Source of the DNA: Methanotrichaceae archaeon | GTDB lineage: Archaea; Halobacteriota; Methanosarcinia; Methanotrichales; Methanotrichaceae | Length of the DNA: 64,000 nucleotides | Assembly: GCA_963803145.1 (NCBI GenBank) | Contig: CAWDLW010000008.1 | Location: 352,001-416,000 of the forward strand | Direction: 5' to 3' | Shown: piece after piece, positions 30,495 through 59,825 of the stretch | Layout of the letters: each line of letters opens with the position of its first letter | Position numbering within the stretch: position 1 is the stretch's first letter | Notes under the pieces: model-generated | The model's input: only the letters and a program-made list of their open reading frames with translations | What the model was told of the DNA's origin: nothing | Database searches by the model: none | Made by a program: the position numbers and the translations under genes

Positions 30495-31568
30495 CTACTT
30501 AGTTAAATTAGCTGATTTATTGCATGTCGTGCAGTTCTTGCTCTTCGTTATGGTAACATTGATCATCGACCTGGCCGTGCCTATCGCGGTCTGATCGCAT
30601 GTTGCACATCCCTTTACAGCACCAATTTCTGATTTATTTATCTGTTCAGTGACCAAGCTTTTCGCAATTATTGCCGACGAATTGCCAGTCGGGTTCTTCG
30701 TTGCAGTCATATTAACCAGCTGCATAGTAGTCACGAAGTTCGCTCCCTTGGAGGTTGCATACTGGATGAAATTCTTATATGCATCCAGGTAATCGCCGTT
30801 GCCTGATACGAGGTTGCTGAATATTACAACCATCGGATCTCCATTCTTGGCGCTTTCATCGAACTTCTTCGACAGAATTTCATACCACTGATCGCCGCTT
30901 AGCTTCTTAGTATCTTTTATATAGCGGTCGTAAAGATATACGCGCTCTCCATTAAGCATATATGTGCTCACAGGTACGGCATAGAGATTATGGCCCTCAA
31001 TGATATACGGCCAGGTATCCTTCTCGTGGCCGGGCATATAAATTGCCCCTGCCTGGAATCCGGCATCATAGACAATCCCCAGCTTCTCCAAGATATTAAA
31101 GGTAGCATTATTTTGATCAAATGCCTGGGGTCTGAAGCCTTTTATGTCAACATGCTTCCCGCCGCATACATAGCAGTGATAAAGTGCATCCTTTGCATTC
31201 GTCAATAGAGTCTCCTGGTCGGCATCGGACATGGTTGAGAGCTTCTCATCAGTTGTATTTCCGTAAAGAGCAAGCTCGTGAGTGGGATGAGTTCCCTGCT
31301 CTGTTATTCCAAGCCTGTATGCAGATACAATATCCTGGCTCACAAATATAGTAGCATTCAATTGTCCTGGAACCAGCTCATTGGTTAAAGCTATCAGGGA
31401 GTTTCCAGCTTCTGTCGTCTGATCTGCGGTTGGCGTGTGATTTATGTCTGCATCCAACATCATATTAACAACTACCGGACTCTCTTTAGAAAGAGAGATT
31501 CCAGCAGATCCTAGCAGAAACACGCCTAGGAGAACTACTATAACCATAGTGCTTTTTATATTATGCAT
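30495..31568 (-). CDS. Secreted polysaccharide-deacetylase-like protein (CE4/NodB fold)
   Basis: Signal peptide; ATIFV, HELALYG, KGFRPQ, GIVYDAG; several catalytic positions look altered. Confidence 0.7.
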   Translation of the reverse strand: MHNIKSTMVIVVLLGVFLLGSAGISLSKESPVVVNMMLDADINHTPTADQTTEAGNSLIALTNELVPGQLNATIFVSQDIVSAYRLGITEQGTHPTHELALYGNTTDEKLSTMSDADQETLLTNAKDALYHCYVCGGKHVDIKGFRPQAFDQNNATFNILEKLGIVYDAGFQAGAIYMPGHEKDTWPYIIEGHNLYAVPVSTYMLNGERVYLYDRYIKDTKKLSGDQWYEILSKKFDESAKNGDPMVVIFSNLVSGNGDYLDAYKNFIQYATSKGANFVTTMQLVNMTATKNPTGNSSAIIAKSLVTEQINKSEIGAVKGCATCDQTAIGTARSMINVTITKSKNCTTCNKSANLTK

Positions 31569-31820
31569 GTTTATACCCTCTGAACCCTTATTCTGAGTTA
31601 ACCCTAAATGGCTTGTCTATTTAGCGCACTTTTATACTTGATATAGACTTCGGTTGAATAATTATAATAGCCTTTTTATTATTAGTATGTTAACAATTTA
31701 TTTATTTTATCCTAATACATAAATAATGCCTGCAGTATGTTGGTTTCCGCTAATTTTATCTCAAATCATTGGTATTAATAGGATAGAAAAATTTAAATAG
31801 ACTGGAATCTATTATCCTGA

Positions 31821-32582
31821 TTGGTGATCAGAATGCGGATATATTCGCGAAGAGGGGCACTAATTATTTTGTTGTGCCTAATGAGTATAATTGTGGGTGC
31901 ATACGCCGATGACCAACAAACAGCATCTCATGCTGGATGTACTCCAGTCACCCAGAGCGTAGTGGCTCCAGGAGACATAATTAATCTGAAAGGCCCGGAT
32001 GTCGCGGCAGATCAGGCTGCTTTGGGCATCACGTGGGACTATCAATGGACTGTGAAAGAAAACGATGCAAATGGTAAGACTGTACAGCAATCTTCAGGAC
32101 AGAACTTTGCGTTCAATGTACCTGCCACGAGTTATGCCAAGAACTATTATATCGATTTAATGGTAACAGCTCATCAGGCATCCCTTTGTATCAATGAAGC
32201 CTGCATGTTATTCCCAATTGTGGCTCCAGGACAATGTACGATATCTACAACTCAGCCCACTCAAATTTGCGTTTCGGATACTTCAGGCTATAGCTATACA
32301 ACAGCAGCAACACCAAGCCAGGTTAACCAGCGCTGGTGGATATTCCCATTAGCTAAGCTGCCTTCAGATCCCTCAACGCTAGGCTACAACGACCAGGCAA
32401 CCTATAAGATAGGAGATGGAAATAGCATATCAGTGAACTGGAATGCTGTGTCCGGTGGCAATTCCGGAACATATGTAGTGTTAACAGCATACTATGCTAA
32501 GAAATCAAACGCATACCAGGGCTCCTGTCAGATGAGGATCACTGTAGTAGGCGTACCATCTTCAACTATAACAGTCACTTGA
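31821..32582 (+). CDS. Secreted two-Ig-domain Cys-containing protein (candidate filament shaft subunit)
   Basis: Signal peptide; domain 1 aligns with the N-terminus of 34427-38326, domain 2 with the C-terminus of 32726-34408. Confidence 0.75.
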   Translation: MVIRMRIYSRRGALIILLCLMSIIVGAYADDQQTASHAGCTPVTQSVVAPGDIINLKGPDVAADQAALGITWDYQWTVKENDANGKTVQQSSGQNFAFNVPATSYAKNYYIDLMVTAHQASLCINEACMLFPIVAPGQCTISTTQPTQICVSDTSGYSYTTAATPSQVNQRWWIFPLAKLPSDPSTLGYNDQATYKIGDGNSISVNWNAVSGGNSGTYVVLTAYYAKKSNAYQGSCQMRITVVGVPSSTITVT

Positions 32583-32725
32583 GAGCTATCGGCGGCACCA
32601 GGGCACATGCCTTGGTTCTCCACAATTTATTTGACAAGATACTCCTGGTAGAAGGAGGCTTGCCCATAAAATGAATCTAATCGATAAGATTTCTGTGATA
32701 CAGATGGGGGATCGGTTAAAACATT

Positions 32726-34408
32726 ATGCTGCAGAAACCATCGGCCACTAAGTCGAGCAACATAAAAGATCAATCCAATAAGTTATACTTTATATTTATA
32801 TTAATTTACTTATCTAATAATGTCGCGAATGCTGCAGACGACTGGCCTGATTGCAATTTTCACTGCGACGCGGGCGATGTTACTCTTTTGAAGGCATATC
32901 TTGGAGATGCATCAGGCGATCCTCTTAAGAGCTGCTCATCAGGAAGTCCTGTGACAGCATATCTCTGGATTAGCATTTACAACAATGCCAATTCTCCCAG
33001 GAACGCCGTGATATTGCTTGCGGATGTATATATCGATGATAATCTCGCATATACGACATATCCCGATGGGTTATGTGTTCTGGATAATATCGACCCCAAG
33101 GCCACTTCAAATTATGCGATTTACAGCTTCTCCTGGACATGCGGCCAATCGGTTAAGCTCACCAGGATGGTGCTCAGCTGGGAGACTGCAAACGATGTAA
33201 CATGTGTCAATGCAAATCGCAAATGCGCCAATAGAGGCACGAAATGCTATGGCGGAGAAACCATTGAAGTGCCGGTGCAGACACCCCTGGTGGCTGACTT
33301 CTACTCCAATTCACCACAGTGCTGCTGCGACGTCTCTTTTTATAATAATAGCCATGGAGGAGTTTCCCCTTATACATTTCAGTGGAATTTCGGCGATGGA
33401 TCCACAATTAGCACCCTCCAGAACTCCACACACGCATACAGCAGTCCAGGGACTTACAGCGTCACATTAACCGTAAAGGATAGTGTAGGAACCTCAACAT
33501 CAATAACAAAACAGGTTACTCTGTATCCTCACCCCGATGCAGATGCTGGCAATAATCTGAGCATCGTCCCAGGAGGCTCAGTCGGCTTAGGAGGCAGCAC
33601 CTCAGGTGGAAGTCCTCCTTATAGCTTTGCCTGGTCACCAGCCAGCAGCCTCAGCAATCCATCGTTGCAAAATCCCCTAGCTTCGCCTCTTAACACGACC
33701 AAATATACTCTCACTGTAACAGATTCACATGGCTGCACGGGCTCCGATTTTGTGACTGTCTATGTTTCATCGATCAAAGTAGCGAAATCCGCATCCAATA
33801 ACCCTGTGCAAACAGGATCCCAGGTCACGTATACCTACAAAGTCCAGAATACTGGAGGCTCAAATCTAAAAATGATATCCCTGGTTGATTCCTACTTTGG
33901 AGCCATAGCCGGTCCACCCACAGGGGACTTGAATGGAGACAATCTGCTAAATCCGAGGGAGACCTGGACTTATCAGGCAATTTACCGCATTTATGCCAAT
34001 ACTACAAATTATGCCATTGCAAGTGCAACAGATCCAACGGGAATGATGGTCACCTCTAATTCAGCCATTGTAGTCGTCAATGTGACCAACCCGCAGGGGT
34101 TTCCAGGATTCGCCATCCAGGGCAATGACCTCGTATGCATTATGACACCCTCCACGTATACCTACACGATAACAGGACAGCCTATTACAAATTATCGATC
34201 CACATGGCAGATCGATGGCTCGCCTATCAATAACATAAACGCTGATGGCAGCATTACAGTGGACTGGAGGCTTTACGGCAGTGGCTATCACCTCCTTCAG
34301 CTTTCTGTAAACTTCATCGATGACCGGGGAAGAATATGGCACACCAGCTTGTATGGAATGAAGATTCTGGTGGTCAATACCCCTAGCGCCAACATACGGG
34401 TCATGTAA
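32726..34408 (+). CDS. Secreted PKD/Ig-repeat protein (candidate tip subunit)
   Basis: Cys-rich N-domain; PKD motif WNFGDG...HAYSSPGTYSVTLTV; DUF11-like domain with GDLNGDNLLNPRETW. Confidence 0.8.
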   Translation: MLQKPSATKSSNIKDQSNKLYFIFILIYLSNNVANAADDWPDCNFHCDAGDVTLLKAYLGDASGDPLKSCSSGSPVTAYLWISIYNNANSPRNAVILLADVYIDDNLAYTTYPDGLCVLDNIDPKATSNYAIYSFSWTCGQSVKLTRMVLSWETANDVTCVNANRKCANRGTKCYGGETIEVPVQTPLVADFYSNSPQCCCDVSFYNNSHGGVSPYTFQWNFGDGSTISTLQNSTHAYSSPGTYSVTLTVKDSVGTSTSITKQVTLYPHPDADAGNNLSIVPGGSVGLGGSTSGGSPPYSFAWSPASSLSNPSLQNPLASPLNTTKYTLTVTDSHGCTGSDFVTVYVSSIKVAKSASNNPVQTGSQVTYTYKVQNTGGSNLKMISLVDSYFGAIAGPPTGDLNGDNLLNPRETWTYQAIYRIYANTTNYAIASATDPTGMMVTSNSAIVVVNVTNPQGFPGFAIQGNDLVCIMTPSTYTYTITGQPITNYRSTWQIDGSPINNINADGSITVDWRLYGSGYHLLQLSVNFIDDRGRIWHTSLYGMKILVVNTPSANIRVM

Positions 34409-34426
34409 GGGATAGTACTTATCGAA

Positions 34427-37400
34427 ATGTCAGAAGTCTCCTTAGCCAAAAAAGAAAAAGAGGTGAGAGATTGGCACAAAGTAGCGGAGACTGCCGTAAT
34501 ACTGATAATATTATTTCAAGCCATCCTTACTGCGGGAGGCGAAACTCAACATGTGGGTGGCAAAACATATACCTTTAGCGGGCCTGCGGCTCCTGCTGGC
34601 GAAATTTACGCCTATAATTGGACGGTAACTGCTGGAACTCCCCAAACATCCAGCGATGCATCCTTCCAATGGACCTCGCCTCAGGTAACAGAGCCCACCG
34701 AAGTGACAATCAAACTAATAGTAAGAAGCAACAAAGCAATATGCCCAGGCAAGAGCGAGCTTGAACTGCTGATCATCCCCGGCAGCCAGCCCAAGATATC
34801 TCTTAAAAAGGATTGTATTTTCACCCCTCCAGTAAGAGTAGGAGACTCAATTACATACATTTATAATGTAACGAACAGCGGAAATGTCCCGCTAACCGAT
34901 ATAAGCCTCACTGATATGCAGGATTGGGGGCCGGATTGCCATCCAGCAAGAGCCGGAAATGGAGACGGCATACTCAACCCGGGAGAGACCTGGCAGTATG
35001 AGTGCAAATATATCGTCCCTGATCCATCCGATTACCAGCAGCTGCATATAATGTCTGATAATTCTTCTAAAGATGCAATAATCCAGAGGCTGATGGATAT
35101 GAAGGTCCTGCTGGAGATGAAGATGAATGGCCTAAAGCCCAAGCGCCAGAGATTCAATACTAAAGTGGCAACACTGACCATTCATCATAAGCTCTTAAAT
35201 GGGAGCAACTATACGCTCTACAATTACACCAATGAAATCACAGGGGAAAGCTTAAGTCGATGGTTAGATTCGGATGGAAAAACCAGAAGATCAGACTATT
35301 ACGATCCTGTGACTCAGGCAATACTGACTGCCGAGTACAATTCCGATGGAAGTCCAAAATCGGATTCAATCCTGTTGATAGAGCCTAAGGATTATTTAAA
35401 AATAGAATATGACGTGGCTTCGAACAGATATAAAAATTACACAACCGGCTACACAAGTTATACAATCATAGATTACAATACAGGCGACACGCTGATACTG
35501 TTAGTACATATTTCTGGCAAGATAGTGAGCAAGGAGTATAGAAAGACGCCGGGATACAGGCCATATGAAGAAAAATACTTCCTCAAAAATACAGCTTCAG
35601 TGACTGGAAAAGACCCGGACGGCAGTATAGTCTCGGATATGGACTCATTCTCTCTGGAGATCTACAAACAGCTCCCTGTTCTGAGGATTACCAAGAAGGC
35701 AGATCCGGATCCTGTAAGTTCGGGCGGCACTATCAACTATACCATTACCTATCAGAATACAGGAAAAGAGGATGCTCATCAGGTAGTAATCAAAGAAAAA
35801 TATGACCCAAATATGATATTCAAATCTGCAAACCCAATTCCCGATGCAGGGACCATGGATACATGGACGGTGGGCGATTTGCCGAGCGGTGTGTCCGGAA
35901 CAATAAAAATAACTGCCAATGTCAGTACGACCATCGCTCCTGGCAGCAGCATAATGAACGTGGCAGATTTGACCTGCAAAGAGAACGCATCTGACCGGGC
36001 TATTATCAACACAACAGTAAAAAACCTTGGACTGAACATAACCAAAAATGCATCATCCCGCTATATCAAAGCCGGGAATATCCTGACCTACACCATAAAC
36101 TACAGGAATGACGGACCAGGTGTGCAAACTAACGTAATAGTTCATGATTATCTGGATCCAAATGTTGGATTCGTGGGTTCCACCCCGCATCCCACGGGCT
36201 ATTTGGGCAGTCATTACTGGTGGAAAGTAGGAACTTTGAATGTGGGAGATAGCGGGACTATATCGATCCCTGTTAAAGTAAAGGATAGTGCCCCGGATTT
36301 TATCTATAATAATTATAGGATAGATTCCGATCAGACAAAAGGAAGCAATGCAACGTTAGCGACAATGGTCGTTAGCTCCCTCTGGATTAGGAAAACTGCA
36401 GATAGAAAAACGTATTCCCCTGGAGAAAACATAACATATACGATACTCTATGGAAATGATCAATCTACAACCGCATTCGATGTTAACGTTATGGATGTAT
36501 TGCCCGACGTGAAGTTATTAGGTGTCTCTCCATCCCCCACATCTGTTAATGGTAGCACGCTCGAATGGAATATTGGAGATTTGAAATCTGGAGAGAACAG
36601 AACCATCACAGTAATGGTCCACATACCCGAGAAGTCTGAGATTAAGTTCAATGAAGAGTCCTCTGTTAGAGGAGAGGGTTATGCTTACGTAAACAAAAAG
36701 CTCTCTACTGTTGAGGAGCATACTTCCCTTATAAACAGGGCCAATATATCGGGATATTACATGATAAATGCACCTCCCTATAATGCCTCAGCCACTTCAA
36801 CTGTCACCATCCTCGGGTCAGCAGGCACACAGATTTCCACATATGAACATGGAAGCGGCTATTATAAGGAAGACGAGCGGACAAGCCTGCGGTCCAAGAA
36901 CCATAGCATAGCTCTGAGCAAAGATATTACTGCCCAGCATAATAACACTGTCTTTTCTCTGCCTGGAAGCATGAAAGTTAAATATCAATCACAATGGTAT
37001 GACCGCACAACCGCCGAGAATCACGTCCTCAACGACGTAGTCTCCGAGAATTATCTTTACATGGACTCTCTCGATAAGACAAGCTCCTTCCGCGTGGATC
37101 AGAACCAGACCGTTTATCACTCGGAATCAGACTTTAGCGGTGGTATCGCTCAAATCGACTATAAAAAGCATGTGCCTAATAGCACGAACACGCTCAAGGA
37201 GATAAGCGAGAATTATCAGGGAAGCTTCAGAGTGCTTGAGTCAGTGGACTCATATGGAGACAGTACCAAATATATAAAATCAGCAAATGGAAACGGTTTT
37301 GTCTCATCTGATAAGAGGAATAATAGACCCATATCCAATAAGGGATCCGACCTGCTTCAGAGATCATTCGAATATGGAAGCGGATACTACAATTCCGAGG

Positions 37401-38326
37401 AGTCTTTACAGCTCAGCTCATTGACGAAGAGCACGAAGATGGCCTATGCCCCCGAAAACCTTACCGCTGGAACCATAAATGTCAGCTATGCATCTCTCTG
37501 GAATGAAGGATTGATTACAAAAGATCCAAGTTTAGGACTCATATTAAGCGAGAAGATCGGGTCCGCCTCATATGTCAATAAAGATGCGTGGATGGAGACA
37601 TCCTCCATGGCATTTATGGGAGAGTTCAATGGCTCAATGGATATAAGGGCAGTTGTGCATCCCCTGAGTATAAAGAGAAAGGAGGTCGATCAAAGCTTTG
37701 TAGGCAACTATACAATAAGCACTGCAATAACCGCTTACAGAAACCCCAAGTATACCTATCCACATGTGAGCATCAGCAAGGTGGCGAAAAAGGAGGACGA
37801 AAGCACAATGCTGTTCTTGATCAATGTAACCAACGATGGCAATGGGGTCCTAAAATCGCTTTGCGTTACAGACAACATGCCGGATGGGCTGACCTTCATA
37901 AATTCCAGCCTCCGGCCGAAAATAAACGGCCAGATCATCAACTGGACTATATCCTCACTGGACATAAGCAGAACTCTGACAATAAAGCTCAGAGCCAAGA
38001 TTGAGAATGATCTCTATCCATACACAAATATCGCCAGGGTAACTGCGCAGTATAATGGGCATATTCTGACTTCGTCAAACTCGACCTCATTTACGCCCTA
38101 CTACCTGCCCTTCTATATAGGGTCCCATCCTGTGGAGAATTCTTATCTTGCAAAAGTCTTTGACGTCTCCTTAGTTCAGGGACAGTGGGGTGTGTGGAAG
38201 CCCTCTCCATCATTTAATATGACCTTAGAGGCGCCAGATTGCTTTAAAGATATAGATGATTACTACAATGACCTTGACAAAAGCGAATCTGGGTGCTGCC
38301 CTCTATCATCCTATGACGTTCCATAA
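34427..38326 (+). CDS. Large secreted DUF11-repeat surface protein (candidate base/anchor)
   Basis: Repeated LxIxKxA...GxxITYTIxYxN DUF11 units; two copies of the 3050-3802 domain at 36641-37740. Confidence 0.8.
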   Translation: MSEVSLAKKEKEVRDWHKVAETAVILIILFQAILTAGGETQHVGGKTYTFSGPAAPAGEIYAYNWTVTAGTPQTSSDASFQWTSPQVTEPTEVTIKLIVRSNKAICPGKSELELLIIPGSQPKISLKKDCIFTPPVRVGDSITYIYNVTNSGNVPLTDISLTDMQDWGPDCHPARAGNGDGILNPGETWQYECKYIVPDPSDYQQLHIMSDNSSKDAIIQRLMDMKVLLEMKMNGLKPKRQRFNTKVATLTIHHKLLNGSNYTLYNYTNEITGESLSRWLDSDGKTRRSDYYDPVTQAILTAEYNSDGSPKSDSILLIEPKDYLKIEYDVASNRYKNYTTGYTSYTIIDYNTGDTLILLVHISGKIVSKEYRKTPGYRPYEEKYFLKNTASVTGKDPDGSIVSDMDSFSLEIYKQLPVLRITKKADPDPVSSGGTINYTITYQNTGKEDAHQVVIKEKYDPNMIFKSANPIPDAGTMDTWTVGDLPSGVSGTIKITANVSTTIAPGSSIMNVADLTCKENASDRAIINTTVKNLGLNITKNASSRYIKAGNILTYTINYRNDGPGVQTNVIVHDYLDPNVGFVGSTPHPTGYLGSHYWWKVGTLNVGDSGTISIPVKVKDSAPDFIYNNYRIDSDQTKGSNATLATMVVSSLWIRKTADRKTYSPGENITYTILYGNDQSTTAFDVNVMDVLPDVKLLGVSPSPTSVNGSTLEWNIGDLKSGENRTITVMVHIPEKSEIKFNEESSVRGEGYAYVNKKLSTVEEHTSLINRANISGYYMINAPPYNASATSTVTILGSAGTQISTYEHGSGYYKEDERTSLRSKNHSIALSKDITAQHNNTVFSLPGSMKVKYQSQWYDRTTAENHVLNDVVSENYLYMDSLDKTSSFRVDQNQTVYHSESDFSGGIAQIDYKKHVPNSTNTLKEISENYQGSFRVLESVDSYGDSTKYIKSANGNGFVSSDKRNNRPISNKGSDLLQRSFEYGSGYYNSEESLQLSSLTKSTKMAYAPENLTAGTINVSYASLWNEGLITKDPSLGLILSEKIGSASYVNKDAWMETSSMAFMGEFNGSMDIRAVVHPLSIKRKEVDQSFVGNYTISTAITAYRNPKYTYPHVSISKVAKKEDESTMLFLINVTNDGNGVLKSLCVTDNMPDGLTFINSSLRPKINGQIINWTISSLDISRTLTIKLRAKIENDLYPYTNIARVTAQYNGHILTSSNSTSFTPYYLPFYIGSHPVENSYLAKVFDVSLVQGQWGVWKPSPSFNMTLEAPDCFKDIDDYYNDLDKSESGCCPLSSYDVP

Positions 38327-38402: not shown

Positions 38403-40475
38403 CTAGATCAGCTCATATGAACGGGATAGCATCATTAAAGGATATTTATCCTCATCGGAGCCTATGTTATGAGGAATATCGCTGACACCATCGCCATTGC
38501 TGTCAACTCTTCGTCCATCATTCCAGTAATTTCCTAAATAACCTTTGTAATCCTTCCCGTTATATCGGTATCCTAATAATTCCTCACTGCTCCAGCGATT
38601 TGTGGAGATTAATGATTGGGCGCTGTACAAGTTATTTATAAAGTTGTTGAGATATATTTTATTATTGCTTGACTGTTCAGGATACATGCCCTCATCTAAA
38701 TATAAGCCATAATTATTATCGCTTAAGTTATTGAAGAGAAGGATATTTTGGTCTGAGTTTTCCAGCATTATCCCCTGGCGACAATTATGGATAGAGTTAT
38801 CTGTTATGTTGCTCTGGCTCGAGCTATAAATGCTGATTCCAGCATCCTTGCTTTGGGCCTCATTCCCTATAAGGCCATTCCCTTTAGAGGTCATTATCGA
38901 AATTCCATTATCGCCTCCAAGGACTTTATTGGAGATTATGTGATTCTGGGGTGACTGATCAAGCCTTATGCCGTCTTTATTGCGGCGCATATCATTACCT
39001 TTAAGGGTATTATTTCTCGAATCTGTGACAAAAATCCCTTTATCATTATCATAGAGCCTGTTGGATAACAGAGAATTATCTTCAGAATGCTCAATCAAAA
39101 CTCCATTTTGGCAATTGATTATCTCATTCCTGCCAAGACTATTCATATTTGAATAGTTTAAGCAAATTCCCTGAGCCGTGCTTTTACTGGCATTGTTTTC
39201 ATTTAATATATTATTAAAAGCATCCTGCAGCAAAATTCCATTGCCATTCAAATTCGCCTGATTTTTGAATAGGGTATTCTTGTTGCTGCTGATAGAGAGA
39301 ACTATACCACTCGGGTTCTTGTGTGCAATGTTTCCTATAAGGTGGTTGCCGTTTGAATTTTCTAAGAGTATACCTTGCCTATAATCCATTTCTGCCAAAT
39401 TTTCCGTCAGGTTGTTGTTTGAAGACCCATTTAAGTAAGCTCCGCTGCCGCCAGGCATATTGCAGAAACTGTTCTTGTAAATCAGATTATTATCTGAGCC
39501 CATGAGGTGAATTCCATCATACTTGTTAGCGTTGGCATCGTTATCCTCAATGATGTTATTATTGGAATAATAGACCGTTATTCCCCATCCATCGTTCTTG
39601 TCAAAGTTATTTCCTTTAATATAATTGCCAGAGCAATTCCAGAGGTAAAGAGCATAATCATTCTTGAAGGCTGTATTATTCAAGATATAATTCGCCTCAG
39701 ATAGATAGGGGTAGATGCCATAGTCATTATCGATGGCGATATTCTCTATAATACGATTATCCTTAGCTTCCGACAAAACGATGCCATAATCATTTGTAAC
39801 CAATTCGTTTTTTGTTACGACGTTTCCTTGGGACCTGAATAGCTTTATGCCTACACCCAGGTTCTCGCTGGCGTTATTTCCCGCAACTGTATTATTATTG
39901 GAATCGATGAGCATTATCCCTGCCTGGTTATTATTATAGATCTCATTTCCCGTAAGGTTATTTCTTTGGGAATCGTAGAGTATTATGCCCCCCAAGTAGT
40001 TATTATATGCCTCATTAGATACAATATTGTTTTTAGAAGAGGATAGTCGGATTCCAATGCTGTTTCCTTGAACTGTATTATTTATAAGGGTATTATCCTG
40101 AGATCTGGCTTCAATTCCGGACATCGACCAGCCACCTGCCCCAGTCAGATTTAGGCCATCCAGGATTGTGCTATCAGCTAGGATTGTGACTGCATTATGA
40201 TGACTATTAGCGATTATGACAGGCTTATTTCCTCCGGCTGATATGCCCTTTAGCACAAGCCTCTTAGTAACATTGATGCTCTCATTGTAGATCCCGCTAT
40301 GAATCTCTATGATATCTCCTGGAGAGGCTTTATCGATGGCAGATTGGATGCTAGCGCCCGGCACTACAGAGATGGTTGAAGCTTGAACCGATATAGAAAG
40401 CACGAAGATGACCATCAACCATACTAAGACCCCTATCAAAGTGCCAGCCCAATTAAACTGCATATATCTCCCCAT
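38403..40475 (-). CDS. Secreted NosD/CASH right-handed beta-helix protein
   Basis: SIQSAIDKASPGD, many NNxIxxN..GIxL repeats, GNYW...DSNGDGVSDIPH...DKYPL. Confidence 0.88.
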   Translation of the reverse strand: MGRYMQFNWAGTLIGVLVWLMVIFVLSISVQASTISVVPGASIQSAIDKASPGDIIEIHSGIYNESINVTKRLVLKGISAGGNKPVIIANSHHNAVTILADSTILDGLNLTGAGGWSMSGIEARSQDNTLINNTVQGNSIGIRLSSSKNNIVSNEAYNNYLGGIILYDSQRNNLTGNEIYNNNQAGIMLIDSNNNTVAGNNASENLGVGIKLFRSQGNVVTKNELVTNDYGIVLSEAKDNRIIENIAIDNDYGIYPYLSEANYILNNTAFKNDYALYLWNCSGNYIKGNNFDKNDGWGITVYYSNNNIIEDNDANANKYDGIHLMGSDNNLIYKNSFCNMPGGSGAYLNGSSNNNLTENLAEMDYRQGILLENSNGNHLIGNIAHKNPSGIVLSISSNKNTLFKNQANLNGNGILLQDAFNNILNENNASKSTAQGICLNYSNMNSLGRNEIINCQNGVLIEHSEDNSLLSNRLYDNDKGIFVTDSRNNTLKGNDMRRNKDGIRLDQSPQNHIISNKVLGGDNGISIMTSKGNGLIGNEAQSKDAGISIYSSSQSNITDNSIHNCRQGIMLENSDQNILLFNNLSDNNYGLYLDEGMYPEQSSNNKIYLNNFINNLYSAQSLISTNRWSSEELLGYRYNGKDYKGYLGNYWNDGRRVDSNGDGVSDIPHNIGSDEDKYPLMMLSRSYELI

Positions 40476-40552
40476 TCAAGCGGACTATCTTCTCCGATTT
40501 TCACTTACAAGTTTCTCTTTTTCCCCGCATCAAGCATTTTTAGGACGCAATA

Positions 40553-41674
40553 TCATGCCTTATTCCATGATTCCAGAGGATACTTATCGATGCTCGAACC
40601 TCCAGGGATAGAATATCGTGAATCGTAGATCCCATCGCCATTGGCATCGACGCAGCCTTTTCCGGAGCCGTAATCGCTGTAGTGGTTGCCAACCGTCCCG
40701 TTATCCCATTGATTGGCCCCAGACTCATCATAGGCATTGTAGTTGGTGCTGTTTACCAAGTTGTTATGATAAATTCTGTTTTTGCTGCTGTAATAGTTGA
40801 GGTGAACACCGTCCAAGTTATCGCTTACATTGTTATCCCTTATAAGGTTCTCTGTGGAAGATTCAAGAAAGATTGCCTTTGAGTTTCTAGCCACCTCGTT
40901 TTCCACTAAAAGATTGTTGATGGAATCCCGGAGGAGTAAGCCATCGATATGATTGCCGCCAGCATTGTTGCTTCGAATAAGGTTATTCATAGAGTTCTCT
41001 TCAAGACAGATGCCATCTTTATTCCCTTTGGCAATATTTCCAGCAATAGTATTATTAGAGGAAGCCAATACCTCGATACCATCGTTACTGTTATTGGCGG
41101 CTGTATTTTCTATGATGTAGTTATCATGGGAGGTCTTCTCTACCTCGATTCCAACATCCCCATTTTCTCGCGCGATATTGCCTCTCAAGGTATTATTTGC
41201 CGATCCATCCAATTCTATGCCTGATACCCCATTGTTTCCGACTATATTTCTTGAAATGGTATTATTTGAGCCATCTTCCAGCCCTATTCCGCTGTATTCA
41301 TTATTTGTGGCAATATTTTCTTCTATGATGTTATCATTTGAGTCAACCCTAATTCCGATGTTTGATGAGTTGGTGGCATTAAAGCCTTGAAGGATTACTC
41401 CATTTGCAAAGAGAGTTATTGCGTCGCCATTGCCTCTCGCATCAACTACAGGATTGCCTATGCCTCTGAGAACGAGCGGTTTTGTGATCATCAGATTCTC
41501 ATAATATATGCCGCTTTGTACCTCCACGATGTCGCCAGGATTCGCTCTATCGATTGCATTCTGAATAATTTTGCCAGACGATACCGAAATGGTTGAGCAT
41601 TGCGATATCCCGATACTAATAGCGATTATGACAGAGAGAATACAGAGGATATCTTTGCCTAGCAAGCGATTCAA
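40553..41674 (-). CDS. Secreted NosD/CASH beta-helix protein
   Basis: IQNAIDRANPGD, GNHYSDY, DKYPL; probable TTG start overlapping the upstream TGA (TTGA). Confidence 0.85.
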   Translation of the reverse strand: MNRLLGKDILCILSVIIAISIGISQCSTISVSSGKIIQNAIDRANPGDIVEVQSGIYYENLMITKPLVLRGIGNPVVDARGNGDAITLFANGVILQGFNATNSSNIGIRVDSNDNIIEENIATNNEYSGIGLEDGSNNTISRNIVGNNGVSGIELDGSANNTLRGNIARENGDVGIEVEKTSHDNYIIENTAANNSNDGIEVLASSNNTIAGNIAKGNKDGICLEENSMNNLIRSNNAGGNHIDGLLLRDSINNLLVENEVARNSKAIFLESSTENLIRDNNVSDNLDGVHLNYYSSKNRIYHNNLVNSTNYNAYDESGANQWDNGTVGNHYSDYGSGKGCVDANGDGIYDSRYSIPGGSSIDKYPLESWNKA

Positions 41675-42971
41675 AGCATACCCCTTCCGACCTTTTGTAG
41701 AACATATTTCCCGGACTGCTGTACCATTGGGCTCCAATCCCTATCTGAGCCGATGGCATAAGGTGTATCACCTATTCCATCGTTCCCTTTATCTTGGCCA
41801 GAATAGTCGCTCCAGAAGTTACCAATATATCCAATCGCTGTCTTATTCTGGTATTCATAAAGGACAGTCTTAGTGGAGTTCCAGAGATTTACGGAGCCCT
41901 CGGAATGGGCATTATGTGCATTATCTATGAAATCGTTGAAATAGATCTCGTTGCTTCGAGAGGCTTGAATGAAAACACCGTATTGTCCGTTTTTGATTAG
42001 GTTTCCTGTAATTGAATTCCCACCGGAGCTAAAAAGAATTCTAAATCCATAAATATCGCCCAAGAGAGTATTATTTTCCAGGAGGTTTTGAGAGGACCCC
42101 ACTATGGCTATGCCATAATTGTTTTCGGAGATATTATTACACAAAATAATATTGCTATTGGAGCTACTGATGAAAATGCCTACATGATCATTGTTGCTGA
42201 TATTATTGTTTTGAATAGTATTGTTATACGAGTTCTGGAGCAAAATTCCTCCTTTTCTGCCATCTATCTGATTATTTTCTATCATGGAATTGCTGGTATT
42301 GAATAGGATGATGCTCACGGTGTTGTTTTCAAAATTAAGATCTTTTATCGTTATGTTTTTACAGCTTAAGCAATAGATTGTGCCTGCCCTGGAGGAAGAA
42401 TCAAGGAGCTGATCGGAGACGTTGTTTAGGTAATATATGGGCTTTCCATCAACAAGATTGCTAGTATCTATATCGTTATAATTATCAATATCCTTTAGGG
42501 ATATCACCTCAAAATTTGCCTGATTATCATAAATCAGATTGTTCCTGAGAATATTATGGTTCGAATTCACTATATCCATACCGAGTGAGTTATCGCTTAT
42601 TTTATTATTCCTAAGTATATTTCCACTGGAAAGTACCTTTATCCCTGCTCCAAGGGAATTTATTGCTTGTATCCCTCAACTGTAATTCCATTTGCAGATA
42701 ACACCAATGCGCTCGGCTGACCACTCGCATCAATCACTGTGTTTCCCATGCCCATTAGAGTCAAAGGCTTTGTTATATTCACATTTTCGAAATAAGTTCC
42801 ATTTGTCACATTGATAATATCGCCAGGTCTTGCTCTGTCAACAGCATCCTGGATCTTGGAGAATTTGGCCCCCTGGCCCACATCAATAGTGGATGCGTAA
42901 GCCGTATACATAAGAAGATGGATTACGGCAATCCCAAGGACTGCCAGAGATGCCTTTCTCCAGAAGATCAT
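41671..42971 (-). pseudogene. Secreted NosD/CASH beta-helix protein split by one frameshift near 42667
   Basis: N-part (KIQDAVDRARPGD) and C-part (DIDTSNLVDGKPIYY, GNFWSDY) join if one base is added. Confidence 0.8.
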
Positions 42972-44134
42972 TGAGATGAGCCTCCTAAGAGCGACTTAAG
43001 ATCATTCTTGAGATTATCGGATAGCTTAGCCTCGTCTAACTTCGATTTAGCAAGCGAGTAAAGGGTGAACTGATCGTACTTAATCCCTTCAAGGTCTGCA
43101 CCACTCAGATTGACCCCTGTCATCTCAACTCGATTCAAAGTTGAATCCCTAAGATTAGCGCCTGCCATATTGGAATTTGTCAGAAATACATCGGCCAGGT
43201 CAGAATTCTTAAGAATTGCACCTTTCAAGTCCACACCTCTCAGATCCAGCTCATGCAGACTAACTCTGTTAAGCTTTGCTCTATCTAGCACTGCTCCTAT
43301 GAGTCTCACTGAACTCAGATCTGCATCAGAGAGATCGGCCCCCGTCAGGTTTGCTCTGGTTAAATCAGCATAAGGTAGCTTGGCAGAGTTTAGATTGGTT
43401 CCAACCATTTTGGACTCGGTCATATCGGCATAGGCCAAATTGGCCCAATTCATGTTGGCGCCGGTAAAATCCGCCCTCATCAGATAAGCCCGCGTAAAAT
43501 CAGCATCACTCAAATCTGAGCCGCTTAGGTTGGCATCGTAAAGTTCAGCTCTGGAGAACTGACCTCTAGATAGGTAACCTCCGCTTAGATCTGCCCAACT
43601 TAAATGAGCCCCAATTAAATTGGCGCTAATTAAATATATGCTTTTGAGCGTTGCGCCACTTAAATCGGTTCTGAACAACCTGGCATCAGTCATATCAGCC
43701 CCAGAAAGATCTGCATCAGAAAGATCGGCCTCAGTGAGATCTGCCTTTGCCATATGTGCATCTACAAGCCTGGATTTTGATATATCCGCCCTTTTCAATA
43801 TAGATTCAGTTAAATCCGACCTATTCAAGTCTGTGTTATCCAGAACTGCGTCTGTAAGATCCGCTTTCGCAAATTTCGTATCTTCCATGCGAGAATTAGT
43901 TAACCAGGCAGATCGCAAATAGCTACCATTAAAATTTGAACCATTCAAATTGGAGCTCTCTAGATCTGACTGGTTCAAATTTTTATTGCTCAGATTCATG
44001 CCGCTAAGGTCCATATTGCTCAAATTCATGCGATCTGCAGTCTTGATGCCAAGATTCATCGGCTCTGTTGCCATGATGCAGCCTGTTGCAATCAATATAC
44101 ATATCAGAAGCTGTATCAGCAATTTAGCTTTCAT
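42968..44134 (-). CDS. Secreted pentapeptide-repeat protein
   Basis: GGAGGA RBS before MKAKLLIQ signal peptide; continuous A(D/N)LXX repeats. Confidence 0.88.
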   Translation of the reverse strand: MKAKLLIQLLICILIATGCIMATEPMNLGIKTADRMNLSNMDLSGMNLSNKNLNQSDLESSNLNGSNFNGSYLRSAWLTNSRMEDTKFAKADLTDAVLDNTDLNRSDLTESILKRADISKSRLVDAHMAKADLTEADLSDADLSGADMTDARLFRTDLSGATLKSIYLISANLIGAHLSWADLSGGYLSRGQFSRAELYDANLSGSDLSDADFTRAYLMRADFTGANMNWANLAYADMTESKMVGTNLNSAKLPYADLTRANLTGADLSDADLSSVRLIGAVLDRAKLNRVSLHELDLRGVDLKGAILKNSDLADVFLTNSNMAGANLRDSTLNRVEMTGVNLSGADLEGIKYDQFTLYSLAKSKLDEAKLSDNLKNDLKSLLGGSSQ

Positions 44135-44298
44135 CCATCCTCCTACACCAGGTTTGAATCCCCTTAAGCTAACTCTACAACCCATAGACTTCAAAAGAAT
44201 GTTGATAGAATAACTCATATTTAACCTTCTCCAATTTTGATGCATCTAAATCGATCTCCATTCCATTGAAATGCCGAAAATATCATAATGCTTGGAAT

Positions 44299-55875: not shown

Positions 55876-56023
55876 CCTAAACGCCGGGGTTATTATAACC
55901 AGGGTTCTACCGATAACGAAAAATTCTCTTGCCTAGTTATTAGAGTTATTACCATCAAATGGCTTAATCCAACTACTGCCATCATATTTGCTTGCATAGT
56001 TATTAAAGAGCCCGGAGTTTAGG
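55876..56023. mobile_element. MITE, 148 bp
   Basis: TIR CCTAAACGCCGGG / CCCGGAGTTTAGG; 6-bp TSD ACTTAA. Confidence 0.8.
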
Positions 56024-56222
56024 ACTTAATCAAATAGCACTTGAATCAAGATACCAGCTACGAAAACAGTGGAGGATATTATTATCATATCAAAAAATCG
56101 AAAAAATTATTAGAAGAAAACATGAATAACTTAAGTCGATAGATCTCAAAATTCGTTTTAATTCTCGGTATCGATTTAAACTTATTTATGCAGAAAAAAG
56201 AAAACCGAGCGATCTCATTTAG

Positions 56223-56459
56223 CCCACATTCCGCACCTTCAAATAGCACGAAAATAATTTTCAGGCTAAACAAGATTTACATATTACACTTAATATCCAA
56301 ATTTATTCAGCAAATAGGAAAATCAGAGTTTTTTGTGCAAGTCGTCTTAACTTATCTTTTTGCATGAAATAAGGATTTATGCTGCAAAACGTAAATGTTG
56401 TTCATACTAAGTTGTCATAAAAATTATAAATTTTGAAATTTAATACTGCGGAATGTGGG
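56223..56459. mobile_element. MITE, 237 bp, diverged relative of 55619-55857
   Basis: Perfect TIR CCCACATTCCGCA / TGCGGAATGTGGG; 5-bp TSD TTTAG. Confidence 0.85.
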
Positions 56460-56550
56460 TTTAGTATAAAAACAAAGAATATACTTAATTTATTAAAAAT
56501 GTCCTCAAAGATAAAACCTTTAAATACCAAATAATTGTTAAAAACCTTCC

Positions 56551-58261: not shown

Positions 58262-58264
58262 ATA

Positions 58265-59398: not shown

Positions 59399-59503
59399 GA
59401 AAGTTTATTTTATCCAAATGCCCTGCTTCTAGCTGCTTAGGGAAACCACAGCAGCTATTGATTTATAATAAAATTAATAAATTTTTTTTATTTCTGTATA
59501 TAC

Positions 59504-59641
59504 CCTGAGCCCCCCATTTTTTAGGCATATAGTGTCATTACATAGCGATTCGTGATGGGTAATAGGCACTACGCTGGTTAAGTGAAAAAGAACATAAGCC
59601 TGTTATTCTGTTTTGTTTGCCTAAATGATGGGGAGCTCAGG
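59504..59641. mobile_element. MITE, 138 bp
   Basis: ~24-bp imperfect TIR (CCTGAGCCCCCC...TTTAGGCA / TGCCTAAA...GGGGAGCTCAGG); 6-bp TSD ATATAC. Confidence 0.8.
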
Positions 59642-59825
59642 ATATACTTCTTTATGAAAAAATTATAAATATTAATAATTATATTAAAATTCAGATAGTC
59701 TAATAATATGCATTTTAATATTATGTATTTTACAATATAAGAATATTGTTTCGAAAAATTAAAAACTGGCAGAATCGAAAGCTTGAACTATAATCATGCC
59801 TTTTTGGTGTACTAGGTGACCAGTA

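What the first reader, a model, noticed from the sequence alone, without database searches (positions are those of the whole stretch)
31821..38326. Three-gene operon with shaft/tip/base logic: candidate donor-strand-complemented archaeal filament
Seen: P1 (253 aa) = domain A + domain B; P2 (560 aa) ends in B; P3 (1299 aa) starts with A. A alignment: P1 PGDIINLKGP..GITWDYQWTV..QQSSGQNFAFNVP..IDLMVTAHQASLC vs P3 GGKTYTFSGP..GEIYAYNWTV..QTSSDASFQWTSP..IKLIVRSNKAIC. B alignment: P1 QICVSDTSGYSY..NSISVNW..MRITVVGVPSSTITVT* vs P2 LVCIMTPSTYTY..GSITVDW..MKILVVNTPSANIRVM*. Both B proteins stop after a dangling P-S-x-x-I-x-V strand. That strand resembles the first strand of an Ig/PKD domain (compare internal TLYPHPDADAG in P2), which the N-terminal A domains appear to lack. 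Established: chaperone-usher pili, Bacteroidia type V pili and TasA-like fibres polymerise by strand complementation. Inference: P1 (acceptor + donor) polymerises, P2 (donor only) caps the tip with its Cys-rich domain, and P3 (acceptor only) anchors the base. No class III prepilin signal is visible, so this would not be a type IV pilus.
Basis: partly seen in the sequence, partly recalled or inferred. Interest (0 to 1): 0.88.

Follow-up and report, generated by a model that had tools for sequence, protein, structure and literature searches.

The report
Predicted strand-linked archaeal surface fibre operon
Three neighbouring genes of a methane-producing archaeon (family Methanotrichaceae) encode secreted proteins that look built to click together head-to-tail, the loose end strand of one completing an unfinished domain of the next, which would be a new variant of archaeal surface fibre but so far rests on computation only.

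Summary
The three ORFs and the shared modules are real. Pairwise BLASTP is not significant (E about 0.6), but profile comparison confirms A (P1/P3, 96.8%, E 4e-10) and B (P1/P2, 97.9%, E 3e-12). In the whole genome A and B occur only in these three genes. Module A is a PKD-like sandwich without the conserved first strand. Module B ends in a conserved free tail (P-x-x-x-I). A predicted P1 trimer puts the tail of one copy beside strand B of module A of the next (score 0.57, best control 0.02). Independent sequence support: A is always N-terminal and the tailed B always C-terminal; a paralogous operon with giant subunits follows the same logic; two relatives carry B-tail-A fused in one chain; one invariant cysteine on each side of the joint has no partner in its own module. 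A fourth conserved gene (NodB-like) lies upstream. No anchor, chaperone or usher is visible. The system was found almost only in Methanotrichaceae and in no paper searched. It is a new variant of donor-strand fibres, unproven experimentally.

The parts
30495..31568 (-). Gene U (357 aa), transcribed divergently from P1: secreted protein, probably a very divergent NodB/CE4-like (polysaccharide deacetylase fold) protein; fourth conserved member of the locus
   Evidence: A homologue lies beside P1 or P1' in 32 of 35 fetched loci. No Pfam hit at E 1e-3. Weak leads that agree: Atlas score 0.93 with 20 of 30 named hits sharing the Polysacc_deac_1 family set; Pfam Polysacc_deac_1 in 2 of 20 family members, best E 0.0036; PDB chitin deacetylase 5zns E 0.096. 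A U-like domain is fused into DUF11 proteins in L018 and L069.
31793..31800 (+). TATA-like element TTTAAATA about 33 nt upstream of the ATG at 31833
   Evidence: Read directly; function not tested.
31821..32582 (+). P1 (253 aa from TTG; 249 aa from ATG 31833): signal peptide + module A + module B + free tail; acceptor and donor
31938..32228 (+). P1 module A (residues 40-136): PKD-like beta-sandwich with strands A', B, C, C', E, F, G but no conserved strand A; predicted acceptor groove
   Evidence: hhalign to P3-A; weak K319L-like PKD match E 0.015, below Pfam's cut-off; AF2 strands; interface residues; comparison with canonical repeats.
32229..32549 (+). P1 module B (residues 137-243): complete Ig/PKD-like sandwich
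   Evidence: hhalign to P2-B; AF2; VIA matches to PKD domains, Z 7.1-7.5.
32550..32579 (+). P1 C-terminal tail (residues 244-253, VPSSTITVT): predicted donor strand
   Evidence: Conserved P-x-x-x-I; no strand in the monomer model; lies beside strand B of the next copy's module A in the trimer.
32726..34408 (+). P2 (560 aa): signal peptide, Cys-rich beta-sandwich N-domain (36-190), PKD (209-264), K319L-like PKD (274-347), DUF7507 (349-444), module B + tail (460-560); donor only
32831..33295 (+). P2 N-terminal Cys-rich domain (residues 36-190), no Pfam family; generic beta-sandwich
   Evidence: AF2 pLDDT 87.8. Best fold matches are at background level: VIA Z 8.3 WxLIP 9i1y_A; Foldseek E 8e-4 RhoGDI, TM up to 0.44. 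48 homologues; every source name that gives an organism says Methanothrix, Methanosaeta or uncultured archaeon.
34103..34405 (+). P2 module B with tail (residues 460-560; tail TPSANIRVM)
34427..38326 (+). P3 (1299 aa): signal peptide 1-38, module A 39-119, DUF7507 121-197, unassigned 200-415, DUF11 419-519, 536-641, 652-743, unassigned 760-1120, DUF11 1124-1222, Cys-containing C-end 1223-1299 ending YDVP; acceptor only, no anchor
34541..34783 (+). P3 module A (residues 39-119). Its first long strand (KTYTF) starts about 7 residues after the predicted signal cleavage site, so there is no room for a strand A. It holds a single Cys.

Best explanation
The locus (U | P1 P2 P3) encodes a Sec-exported, chaperone-free surface or matrix fibre held together by donor-strand complementation in trans. 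Module A is a PKD-like sandwich that lacks its first strand. The 10-residue tail after module B is that strand. After export, the tail of one subunit pairs antiparallel with strand B of module A of the next subunit and completes its fold. The joint may be locked by a disulfide between the invariant Cys of A (C119, numbering of the 249-aa form) and the invariant Cys of tailed B modules (C146). P1 has both parts and forms the repeating unit. P2 (donor only) fills the last free groove, and P3 (acceptor only, with a large DUF11 payload) takes the last free tail, giving P2 -> (P1)n -> P3. Shown here: the modules, their strict terminal positions, conservation, synteny and the cis-fused form. Predicted here: the joint. 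Inferred: n greater than 1, the disulfide, and an adhesive or aggregation role. Orientation relative to the cell is unknown. By analogy P3 is the distal adhesin and P2 the proximal terminator.
For: Profile homology of A and B with null cross-controls. A and B are private to these three genes in the genome. Predicted P1 trimer: score 0.57 (runs 0.63, 0.57, 0.49) against best control 0.02; runs agree in at least 96% of contacts; partner pLDDT at least 89. In the tool's calibration the mark was reached by 20 of 30 proteins solved as pairs and 1 of 23 solved as single chains. The interface is the tail plus 142, 144-149, 211-213, 237 against 41, 51-55, 57-58, 60-61, 64, 66, 68, 109-113, 115-123, 125, with 243-55 and 246-52 indicating an antiparallel pairing. 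The tail is unstructured in the monomer model. Positions: 89 of 90 A modules start by residue 80 (median 32); 127 of 134 B modules end 0-8 residues before the C-terminus. Gene order P1 / B-only / A-only in 22 of 29 informative loci, and an A-only gene follows P1 in 28 of 29. A paralogous operon has the same logic with giant subunits (A-B...B-tail, 937-1892 aa). In G097 (one contig, 99% complete) the 1896-aa protein is the only carrier of A and tailed B found, so its tail has only its own kind as partner. Cis fusion: in L070 and L072 an internal A is directly preceded by a B-like domain whose end aligns with the tail (18.8 bits, profile positions 8-99). In canonical K319L-like repeats the next domain's P-x-A-x-A-G strand sits where the tail sits. 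Cysteines: C119 position is Cys in 90 of 90 A modules and the only Cys in 20; C146 position is Cys in 128 of 128 tailed B and not Cys in 5 of 6 internal or untailed B; C135 and C232 are both Cys in 111, both absent in 13 and mixed in 4. C146 and C119 touch across subunits in the model.
Against: There is no experimental evidence and no expression data. The joint rests on one structure predictor, whose calibration used two copies and its own alignments, whereas this job used three copies and mine. I could not read model coordinates, so an open groove in the monomer and the geometry of the Cys pair are unverified. Only P1-P1 was modelled. Pairwise similarity of the modules is weak. P1's N-terminal segment (CTP..Q..VVAPG) is conserved, is tied by a co-varying Cys to C124 (46 of 48) and could partly occupy the groove. 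P2 has other cysteines, and P3's next domain has three, so the two unpartnered cysteines could pair inside their own proteins. P2 is missing from 7 of 29 loci. The sequences counted are related, so counts overstate independence. No anchor or assembly factor was identified. Stable extracellular disulfides in a strongly reducing habitat are uncertain (my own knowledge).
Confidence: 0.45

Rival explanations
1. The same tail-into-A joint exists, but the product is a defined hetero-complex, one P2, one P1 and one P3. P1 is a short adaptor that couples the Cys-rich/PKD protein P2 to the large DUF11 protein P3, and P1 does not polymerise in the cell.
For: There are exactly one donor-only and one acceptor-only gene per operon. 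In 6 of 29 loci P1 is followed directly by the A-only gene, so a two-part P1-P3 complex suffices there. In the paralogous operon the acceptor+donor subunit is 937-1892 aa, an odd size for a repeating shaft unit. Nothing measures copy number.
Against: The P1 homo-trimer was predicted with a score well above controls. In G097 the only A and tailed B found are on one protein. P1 and P2 tails are very similar, which gives no obvious basis for excluding P1-P1.
Confidence: 0.2
2. There is no intermolecular strand insertion. P1, P2 and P3 are ordinary co-expressed secreted Ig/PKD/DUF11 surface proteins (adhesins or sheath-associated proteins). The tail is a relic of a lost downstream PKD repeat or serves another purpose, such as a recognition tag for processing, and the predicted interface is edge-strand pairing that predictors readily produce.
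For: Both modules are generic Ig/PKD-like folds (Foldseek TM 0.43 or lower, VIA Z 8.0 or lower; no pilin match). The A-like unit occurs as an ordinary tandem repeat in many large proteins. No chaperone, usher, sortase or anchor lies nearby. In the tool's calibration 1 of 23 single-chain proteins reached the mark.
Against: A relic would not keep an almost invariant P-x-x-x-I in two paralogous families and two operon types. It would not explain why A is always N-terminal and the tailed B always C-terminal, why the modules are private to one operon, why internal B copies lose both the tail and the C146 Cys, or why a tail-like strand is present in cis exactly where A is internal. Known archaeosortase signals carry a transmembrane helix (my own knowledge), which the tail lacks.
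Confidence: 0.3
3. A type IV pilus-like filament: the N-terminal hydrophobic segments are class III signal peptides cut by a prepilin peptidase and form the filament core.
For: P1 begins ..SRRG-ALIILL.., which superficially fits a [KR]-G-hydrophobic prepilin pattern (the pattern is recalled, not from a tool).
Against: The hydrophobic stretch is short and is followed by A-x-A sites in P1, P2, P3 and their relatives. The R-G is not conserved in the P1 family. The mature proteins are all-beta. No prepilin peptidase or assembly ATPase lies in the neighbourhood scanned.
Confidence: 0.02

Closest known systems
Type V pili of Bacteroidia (FimA/Mfa1 systems)
   Same: The donor strand is C-terminal. 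Stalk subunits both accept and donate, base subunits donate, and tip or adaptor subunits lack donor strands. Subunits are two beta-sandwich domains. (PMC13655056, passages read.)
   Different: Type V pilins are lipoproteins with an N-terminal anchor strand that an Arg-specific protease must cut to open the groove. They have a transthyretin-like fold and sit in a bacterial outer membrane. Here there is no lipobox and no conserved cleavage loop, the groove-bearing domain is PKD-like and lacks the strand from the start, and no sequence or fold match to type V pilins appeared.
Archaeal threads of Sulfolobus acidocaldarius (Saci_0406 with putative cap Saci_0405)
   Same: Archaeal, Sec/signal peptidase I export, independent of the prepilin peptidase, donor-strand complementation, a neighbouring donor-only protein proposed as cap, polarity unknown. 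(PMC9715654, passages read.)
   Different: Threads donate an N-terminal strand, carry an inter-subunit isopeptide bond (Asn57 to Asp24 of n+2), and are confined to some Crenarchaea. Here the donor is C-terminal, the candidate lock is a disulfide, there is an acceptor-only giant subunit, and the lineage is Methanotrichaceae. No sequence similarity was seen in any search.
Enterococcus Elr (WxL) pilus
   Same: Three roles in one operon: a polymerising subunit, an acceptor-only tip adhesin made of an invariant attachment module plus a variable payload, and a small donor-only terminator. Much of that model also rests on multimer predictions. (bioRxiv 10.64898/2026.10.17.759780; abstract and sections 7 and 9 read.)
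   Different: Elr has an N-terminal donor strand and a C-terminal WxL acceptor, a dedicated membrane chaperone (ElrE, DUF916/DUF3324), and an LPxTG/sortase anchor, and it is confined to Bacillota. None of these parts is present here. The Z 8.3 match of P2's N-domain to a WxLIP structure is at background level.
Tandem K319L-like PKD repeat proteins
   Same: Module A aligns with the repeat unit (A' and B strands Q-x-V-x-P-G-x-x-V-x-L-x-G, the Y-x-W motif). The tail follows a G strand exactly as the P-x-A-x-A-G strand of the next repeat does, so tail plus A equals one repeat.
   Different: In those proteins the joint is covalent and within one chain. Here the unit is split between two polypeptides. 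Pfam scores for A are below the curated cut-off (15.7 and 13.3 bits against 27).
TasA/Abp bundling pili, cannulae and tafi (other archaeal or Gram-positive strand-donation fibres)
   Same: Chaperone-free extracellular polymerisation by strand donation, linked to biofilm or matrix (search listing and abstract starts only).
   Different: These are unrelated folds and families. Details were not read, so the comparison is at the level of the abstracts.

Membership tests
Donor-strand-complemented fibres (mechanistic class) | Acceptor domain is an Ig-like fold that lacks one strand | tested here: inconclusive
   Module A has six long strands plus two one- or two-residue bridges in AF2. The canonical P-x-A-x-A-G strand has no conserved counterpart. 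P3 has only about 7 residues before strand B. Coordinates could not be inspected, so an open groove was not seen directly.
Donor-strand-complemented fibres (mechanistic class) | A terminal strand of one subunit inserts into the next subunit | tested here: met
   Met in prediction only: trimer score 0.57 against best control 0.02, with tail 239-249 against strands 51-55, 109-113 and 115-123.
Donor-strand-complemented fibres (mechanistic class) | Polymer observed (ladder, EM) | not testable with these tools
Type V pili | Lipoprotein signal with lipidated Cys and an Arg-protease cleavage loop | tested here: not met
   Signal peptides end in A-x-A sites followed by D/E/A/Q, with no lipobox Cys at +1 (read by eye).
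Type V pili | C-terminal donor strand | tested here: met
   The tail is C-terminal.
Type V pili | Sequence or fold kinship with FimA/Mfa1 | tested here: inconclusive
   No such family in Pfam or NCBIfam hits. No type V pilin was among the Foldseek or VIA rows shown.
Type IV pili / archaella | Class III signal peptide and N-terminal hydrophobic helix in the mature protein | tested here: not met
   A-x-A sites, all-beta mature proteins.
Archaeal threads | Homology to Saci_0406 and an N-terminal donor strand | tested here: not met
   The donor here is C-terminal. No thread protein appeared in any search. Saci_0406 was not compared directly.
Chaperone-usher pili | Periplasmic chaperone and usher genes in the operon | tested here: not met
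   Neighbours are U (NodB-like), NosD-like beta-helix proteins and pentapeptide-repeat proteins.
Sortase-dependent pili | LPxTG-type sorting signal with a C-terminal membrane segment; sortase gene | tested here: not met
   The C-termini have no hydrophobic segment. P3 residues 1123-1213 match the RrgB isopeptide D2 model at only 27.8 bits, below the cut-off of 30.
K319L-like PKD domain (PF22352) | Score at or above Pfam's gathering cut-off (27 bits) | tested here: not met
   Module A scores 15.7 bits in P1 and 13.3 bits in P3. P2's internal copy passes with 30.2 bits. Kinship is still likely from the motif comparison.
DUF11 repeat proteins (PF01345 / TIGR01451) | Repeats above the curated cut-off | tested here: met
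   P3 scores 189.1 bits with 5 stretches and 112.8 bits for TIGR01451. Four repeats were placed by segment scans.
CE4 / NodB polysaccharide deacetylases (gene U) | Pfam Polysacc_deac_1 above cut-off; Asp-His-His metal site | tested here: inconclusive
   There are only weak hits. In the family alignment one His-Glu pair (H97, E98) is conserved and no H-x-x-x-H is evident. The CE4 motifs are recalled, not from a tool.

The most novel reading that the evidence does not exclude
Methanotrichaceae build a previously unseen class of extracellular fibre. It is chaperone-free and polymerises through a C-terminal donor strand that completes a split PKD repeat, each joint covalently locked by an inter-subunit disulfide. 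In the paralogous operon it can string together giant 940-1900-aa DUF11 subunits into very long adhesive chains. Together with the linked NodB-like enzyme, these chains would mediate the bundling, granule formation or partner contact for which Methanothrix is known.
Probability: 0.2. Interest if true: 0.8.

Novelty: new variant of a known kind. Interest (0 to 1): 0.62.

Why it matters
From my own knowledge, Methanothrix (Methanosaeta) is among the most important acetate-using methanogens in wetlands, rice soils and anaerobic digesters, and its filaments form the scaffold of methanogenic granules. Apart from the sheath protein, the proteins on its surface are hardly known (PMC10470525, passages). 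If these genes build a strand-complemented fibre, that would add a euryarchaeal lineage and a C-terminal-donor, split-PKD design to the few archaeal strand-donation filaments known. It would show how a tandem-repeat adhesin can evolve into a self-assembling multi-protein chain, with the cis-fused form still present in relatives. It would also give concrete targets (tail, groove, the two cysteines) for testing how Methanothrix aggregates. The claim is directly testable with recombinant P1.

Tried and rejected
Pairwise BLASTP of P1, P2 and P3 gave no significant A or B match; only the DUF7507 parts of P2 and P3 match (E 4e-9). NCBIfam gave nothing for P1. The PamR (CPR pilus) hit on P2 covers only its PKD domain (28 bits against a cut-off of 300).

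Foldseek and VIA searches with the P1 model and the P2 N-domain model gave generic beta-sandwich matches at background level; no pilin or adhesin family stood out. The Atlas search on the P2 N-domain gave no hit of 0.9 or more. The sigma-70 promoter scan does not apply to an archaeon and was not used; promoter-like sites were no more frequent than in shuffles.

A script meant to test co-variation of the two tails of a locus failed with an IndexError after printing its table, and I did not repeat it. By eye, both tails share the residue before the invariant Pro in three classes (V/T-P, S-P, E-P) but differ in the L014 group (K-P against V-P). This may be lineage effect, so I draw nothing from it.

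Conserved residues are not clearly enriched in the predicted interface by my own hand count (9 of 28 conserved mature positions lie in 50 of 224 interface positions), so I make no claim from that.

I first read L052 (G007) and L048 (G097) as 'giant subunit alone'. For genus g6 this was wrong: 5 of 5 genomes have a B-bearing ORF of about 350 aa and an A-bearing ORF of about 1250 aa roughly 4 kb upstream. For G097 nothing else was found with these queries.

Papers on Methanothrix DIET (PMC10470525, passages) and Methanothermobacter aggregation (PMC6759345, passages) say nothing about this operon. The second links a DUF11 protein to aggregation, but its authors doubt that the DUF11 region is responsible. 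Supplementary tables were closed; those of PMC10470525 (expression of Methanothrix surface genes) might bear on expression of homologues.

Not-in-print statement rests on: 'Methanothrix' + 'donor strand' 0 papers; 'Methanosaeta' + 'donor strand' 1 review, seen in the listing only; 'Methanothrix' + 'DUF11' 3 papers held both terms and 2 were listed; and the listings.


Full report
OBSERVATION. P1's listed start is TTG. An ATG at 31833, about 33 nt downstream of a TTTAAATA element, gives the 249-aa form held in the protein collection and is the likelier start. The gaps are 143 nt (P1-P2) and 18 nt (P2-P3). Residue numbers below are those of the 249-aa form (P1 number minus 4) wherever searches are cited.

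ARE A AND B REAL? Pairwise BLASTP does not support them (A: E 0.61; B: E 0.57). I collected 27 P1 homologues and the P2 and P3 orthologues from syntenic loci of related genomes, then compared profiles. P1-A against P3-A gave 96.8% probability, E 4e-10. P1-B against P2-B gave 97.9%, E 3.3e-12. All four cross-pairs used as controls were below 0.4%. Against 20,798 ORFs of the organism's own genome, A occurs only in P1 and P3 and B only in P1 and P2. The profile built from P2 orthologues alone finds P1 as its only other hit (E 9e-4), and the one built from P3 orthologues alone finds P1 at E 0.031.

WHAT THE PARTS ARE. Pfam gives P2 a PKD domain (209-264), a K319L-like PKD domain (274-347) and DUF7507 (349-444). 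It gives P3 DUF7507 (121-197) and DUF11 repeats, four of which I placed at 419-519, 536-641, 652-743 and 1124-1222. Module A gives only sub-threshold K319L-like PKD matches. AF2 with a 23-sequence alignment models P1 as two beta-sandwiches (mean pLDDT 87.7). The segment between the signal peptide and residue 33 is below pLDDT 50, and the last ten residues have no strand assignment. Fold searches return only generic Ig/PKD/FnIII sandwiches. P2's N-terminal Cys-rich domain (36-190) has 48 homologues; every source name that gives an organism says Methanothrix, Methanosaeta or uncultured archaeon. It folds as a beta-sandwich (pLDDT 87.8) with matches at background level. All three proteins have N-terminal hydrophobic segments followed by A-x-A-type sites, which I read by eye in the alignments. 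None has a C-terminal hydrophobic segment. They therefore look like secreted proteins with no visible anchor.

THE TAIL AND THE MISSING STRAND. In P1 and P2 families the chain ends 0-8 residues after module B, in hydrophobic-P-x-x-x-I-x-hydrophobic. The P1 profile also finds large proteins in which the A-like unit is an ordinary tandem repeat. I looked at three of the 150 listed. Two are canonical K319L-like arrays in which each repeat reads G strand, short linker, P-x-A-[DN]-A-G, then Q-x-V-x-P-G-x-x-V-x-L-D-G. P1's TQSVVAPGDIINLKG matches the second part (strands A' and B). The P-x-A-x-A-G strand has no conserved counterpart in module A. In P1 that region varies in length and is modelled with low confidence, and in P3 only about seven residues precede the first long strand. 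The tail follows B's last strand just as the next repeat's first strand would, so tail plus A equals one repeat unit split between two chains. Two relatives keep the unsplit form: the A-only proteins of L070 and L072 read A, B-like domain, A. There the B profile aligns through the tail positions (RVTVLEAPKCAI; 18.8 bits for L070, 7.7 bits and only partial for L072), and the internal A follows a few residues later.

THE PREDICTED JOINT. One complex job was available, and I used it on three copies of mature P1 with the family alignment. The score was 0.57 (runs 0.63, 0.57, 0.49) against 0.02 for the best of three controls. The runs share at least 96% of contacts, and the partner's pLDDT is at least 89. 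In the tool's calibration the mark was reached by 20 of 30 proteins solved as pairs and by 1 of 23 solved as single chains; the tool warns that three copies and my own alignment lie outside that calibration. The interface is head-to-tail: residues 142, 144-149, 211-213, 237 and 239-249 of one copy lie against 41, 51-55, 57-58, 60-61, 64, 66, 68, 109-113, 115-123 and 125 of the next. It is a prediction, not a measurement.

COMPARATIVE SUPPORT. With the P1 profile, 58 of 105 genomes of the same taxonomic family have a match (11 of 16 genera). Outside the family, 1 of 292 genomes of the phylum sample has a marginal 70-residue match. In 30 fetched loci with a small P1, one ends at a contig edge. 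Of the other 29, 22 have P1, then a B-only gene, then an A-only gene; 6 have P1 followed by an A-only gene; 1 has P1 alone.

The B-only genes carry different N-terminal parts (the Cys-rich domain in some, other domains in others), and the A-only genes carry different payloads of 386-2135 aa. Only the terminal modules are constant. A paralogous operon has the same logic with other proteins: gene 1' is 937-1892 aa, built as signal peptide, A, an internal B without tail, DUF7507/DUF11 repeats, then B with tail; gene 2' has the Cys-rich domain, a PKD domain, and B with tail; gene 3' starts with A and ends in NYEVP.

Over 416 distinct sequences I found 90 A and 134 B modules. A starts at a median of residue 32, with one outlier at 113. 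Of the B modules, 127 end within 8 residues of the C-terminus. The other 7 are the 5 internal copies of the giant proteins, one ORF that runs off its contig and one fragment. These genomes are related, so the counts are not independent events.

CYSTEINES. The C119 position is Cys in 90 of 90 A modules and is the only Cys in 20 of them. C124 is present in 48 and goes with a Cys in the N-terminal segment in 46 of those. In 128 tailed B modules the C146 position is always Cys. C135 and C232 are both Cys in 111, both absent in 13 (including the window's own P2) and mixed in 4, as expected of an intradomain pair. In the 6 internal or untailed B modules C146 is Gly or Thr in 5. So each module keeps one invariant Cys with no partner inside that module, and these two residues are among the most confident contacts across the predicted joint (146 with 119). 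I infer a possible inter-subunit disulfide. Pairing with cysteines of other domains of P2 or P3 is not excluded.

A FOURTH GENE. The divergently transcribed gene at 30495-31568 (357 aa) has a homologue next to P1 or P1' in 32 of 35 loci. A similar domain is fused into DUF11 proteins in L018 and L069. It has no Pfam hit at 1e-3. Three weak leads point to the NodB/CE4 deacetylase fold. Its role is unknown. No chaperone, usher, sortase or prepilin peptidase lies nearby; the downstream neighbours are three NosD-like beta-helix proteins and pentapeptide-repeat proteins.

HOW IT MOST LIKELY WORKS. The proteins are exported by Sec and their signal peptides are cleaved. The free tail of a B module then completes the module A of another subunit. 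P1 has both ends and can chain; P2 can only donate and P3 can only accept. This gives P2 -> (P1)n -> P3. Whether n exceeds 1 is open. The P1 trimer prediction favours it, as does the finding that in G097 (one contig, 99% complete) the 1896-aa A...B protein is the only carrier of A and tailed B found with its own modules and with the family profile. My first reading that genus g6 also had a lone giant was wrong, as searches showed.

Orientation is also open. In type V pili the base and stalk pilins carry the C-terminal donor strands and the tip and adaptor pilins lack them (PMC13655056). In the Elr pilus model the acceptor-only ElrA is the distal adhesin and the donor-only ElrB the base terminator. 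For archaeal threads the polarity is stated to be unknown. Nothing here tests this.

COMPARISON AND NOVELTY. In mechanism this is closest to type V pili (C-terminal donor), and in setting to archaeal threads (Sec-dependent, chaperone-free, with a donor-only cap). It fails the defining features of both families, as it does those of chaperone-usher, sortase-dependent and type IV pili (see the membership table). Its modules derive from PKD-like repeats. I found no paper that links Methanothrix or Methanosaeta to strand donation and none that describes these genes. I rate it a new variant of a known kind, supported by several independent computational lines and by no experiment.

CONFIDENCE. Tail-into-A joint of some kind: about 0.65. 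Joint plus P1 polymerisation: 0.45. Defined hetero-complex: 0.2. No joint: 0.3.

Noticed in passing
window 38403-42579, - strand: Three consecutive genes (690, 394 and 302 aa) for NosD-like right-handed beta-helix proteins with signal-peptide-like starts, directly downstream of P3 and convergent with it. Proteins annotated as cell-surface proteins with a copper-binding domain are listed among expressed surface proteins of Methanothrix thermoacetophila (PMC10470525); whether they are the same family was not checked.
   Followed up: partly
window 42968-44245 (-) and 45208-47982 (+): Two large pentapeptide-repeat proteins (425 and 924 aa); the second also has a weak ABC substrate-binding match.
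   Followed up: no
window 56001-60000: G+C falls to 0.32 against 0.40-0.50 elsewhere in the window; possibly a foreign island or an RNA-poor spacer. Not examined.
   Followed up: no
window 38093-38323 (P3 residues 1223-1299) and orthologues in L011-L013, L049, L051, L054, L061, L073: P3-type proteins of both operon types end in a conserved Cys-Cys...[SN]-[YF]-[DE]-[VI]-P carboxy terminus; another group ends in GDD[SND]LP. Its function is unknown; it could be a binding or sorting element for the acceptor-only subunit.
   Followed up: partly
L018 26-3163 (+) and L069 2718-6785 (-): A domain like gene U (NodB-like) is fused near the C-terminus of DUF11 proteins of 1045 and 1355 aa, which ties U functionally to the P3 type of protein.
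   Followed up: partly
L053 13150-13887 (-), genome G068: A second P1-like gene (245 aa) with module A but no detectable tailed B (it ends ..HKPKPIMR) lies beyond gene U. The same locus lacks a B-only gene.
   Followed up: no
L050 (G015:C9:19000-35000): A five-gene version of the paralogous operon: giant A-b...B, an A-b protein of 611 aa (partly masked by N), two B-only proteins (245 and 723 aa) and an A-only protein. The same genome also has a type-1 locus (L016).
   Followed up: partly
L061 9456-9872 (-), genome G058: P1 is reduced to 138 aa (the end of A plus B with tail) although P2 and P3 are intact, and no gene U lies in the 2.5 kb upstream. It is either a truncated P1 or a wrongly called start.
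   Followed up: no
window 35024-35686 and 36704-37786 (P3 residues 200-415 and 760-1120): Two long stretches of P3 have no Pfam family. The second holds repeated ..[EY]-[HY]-G-S-G-Y-Y.. motifs that also occur in orthologues.
   Followed up: no
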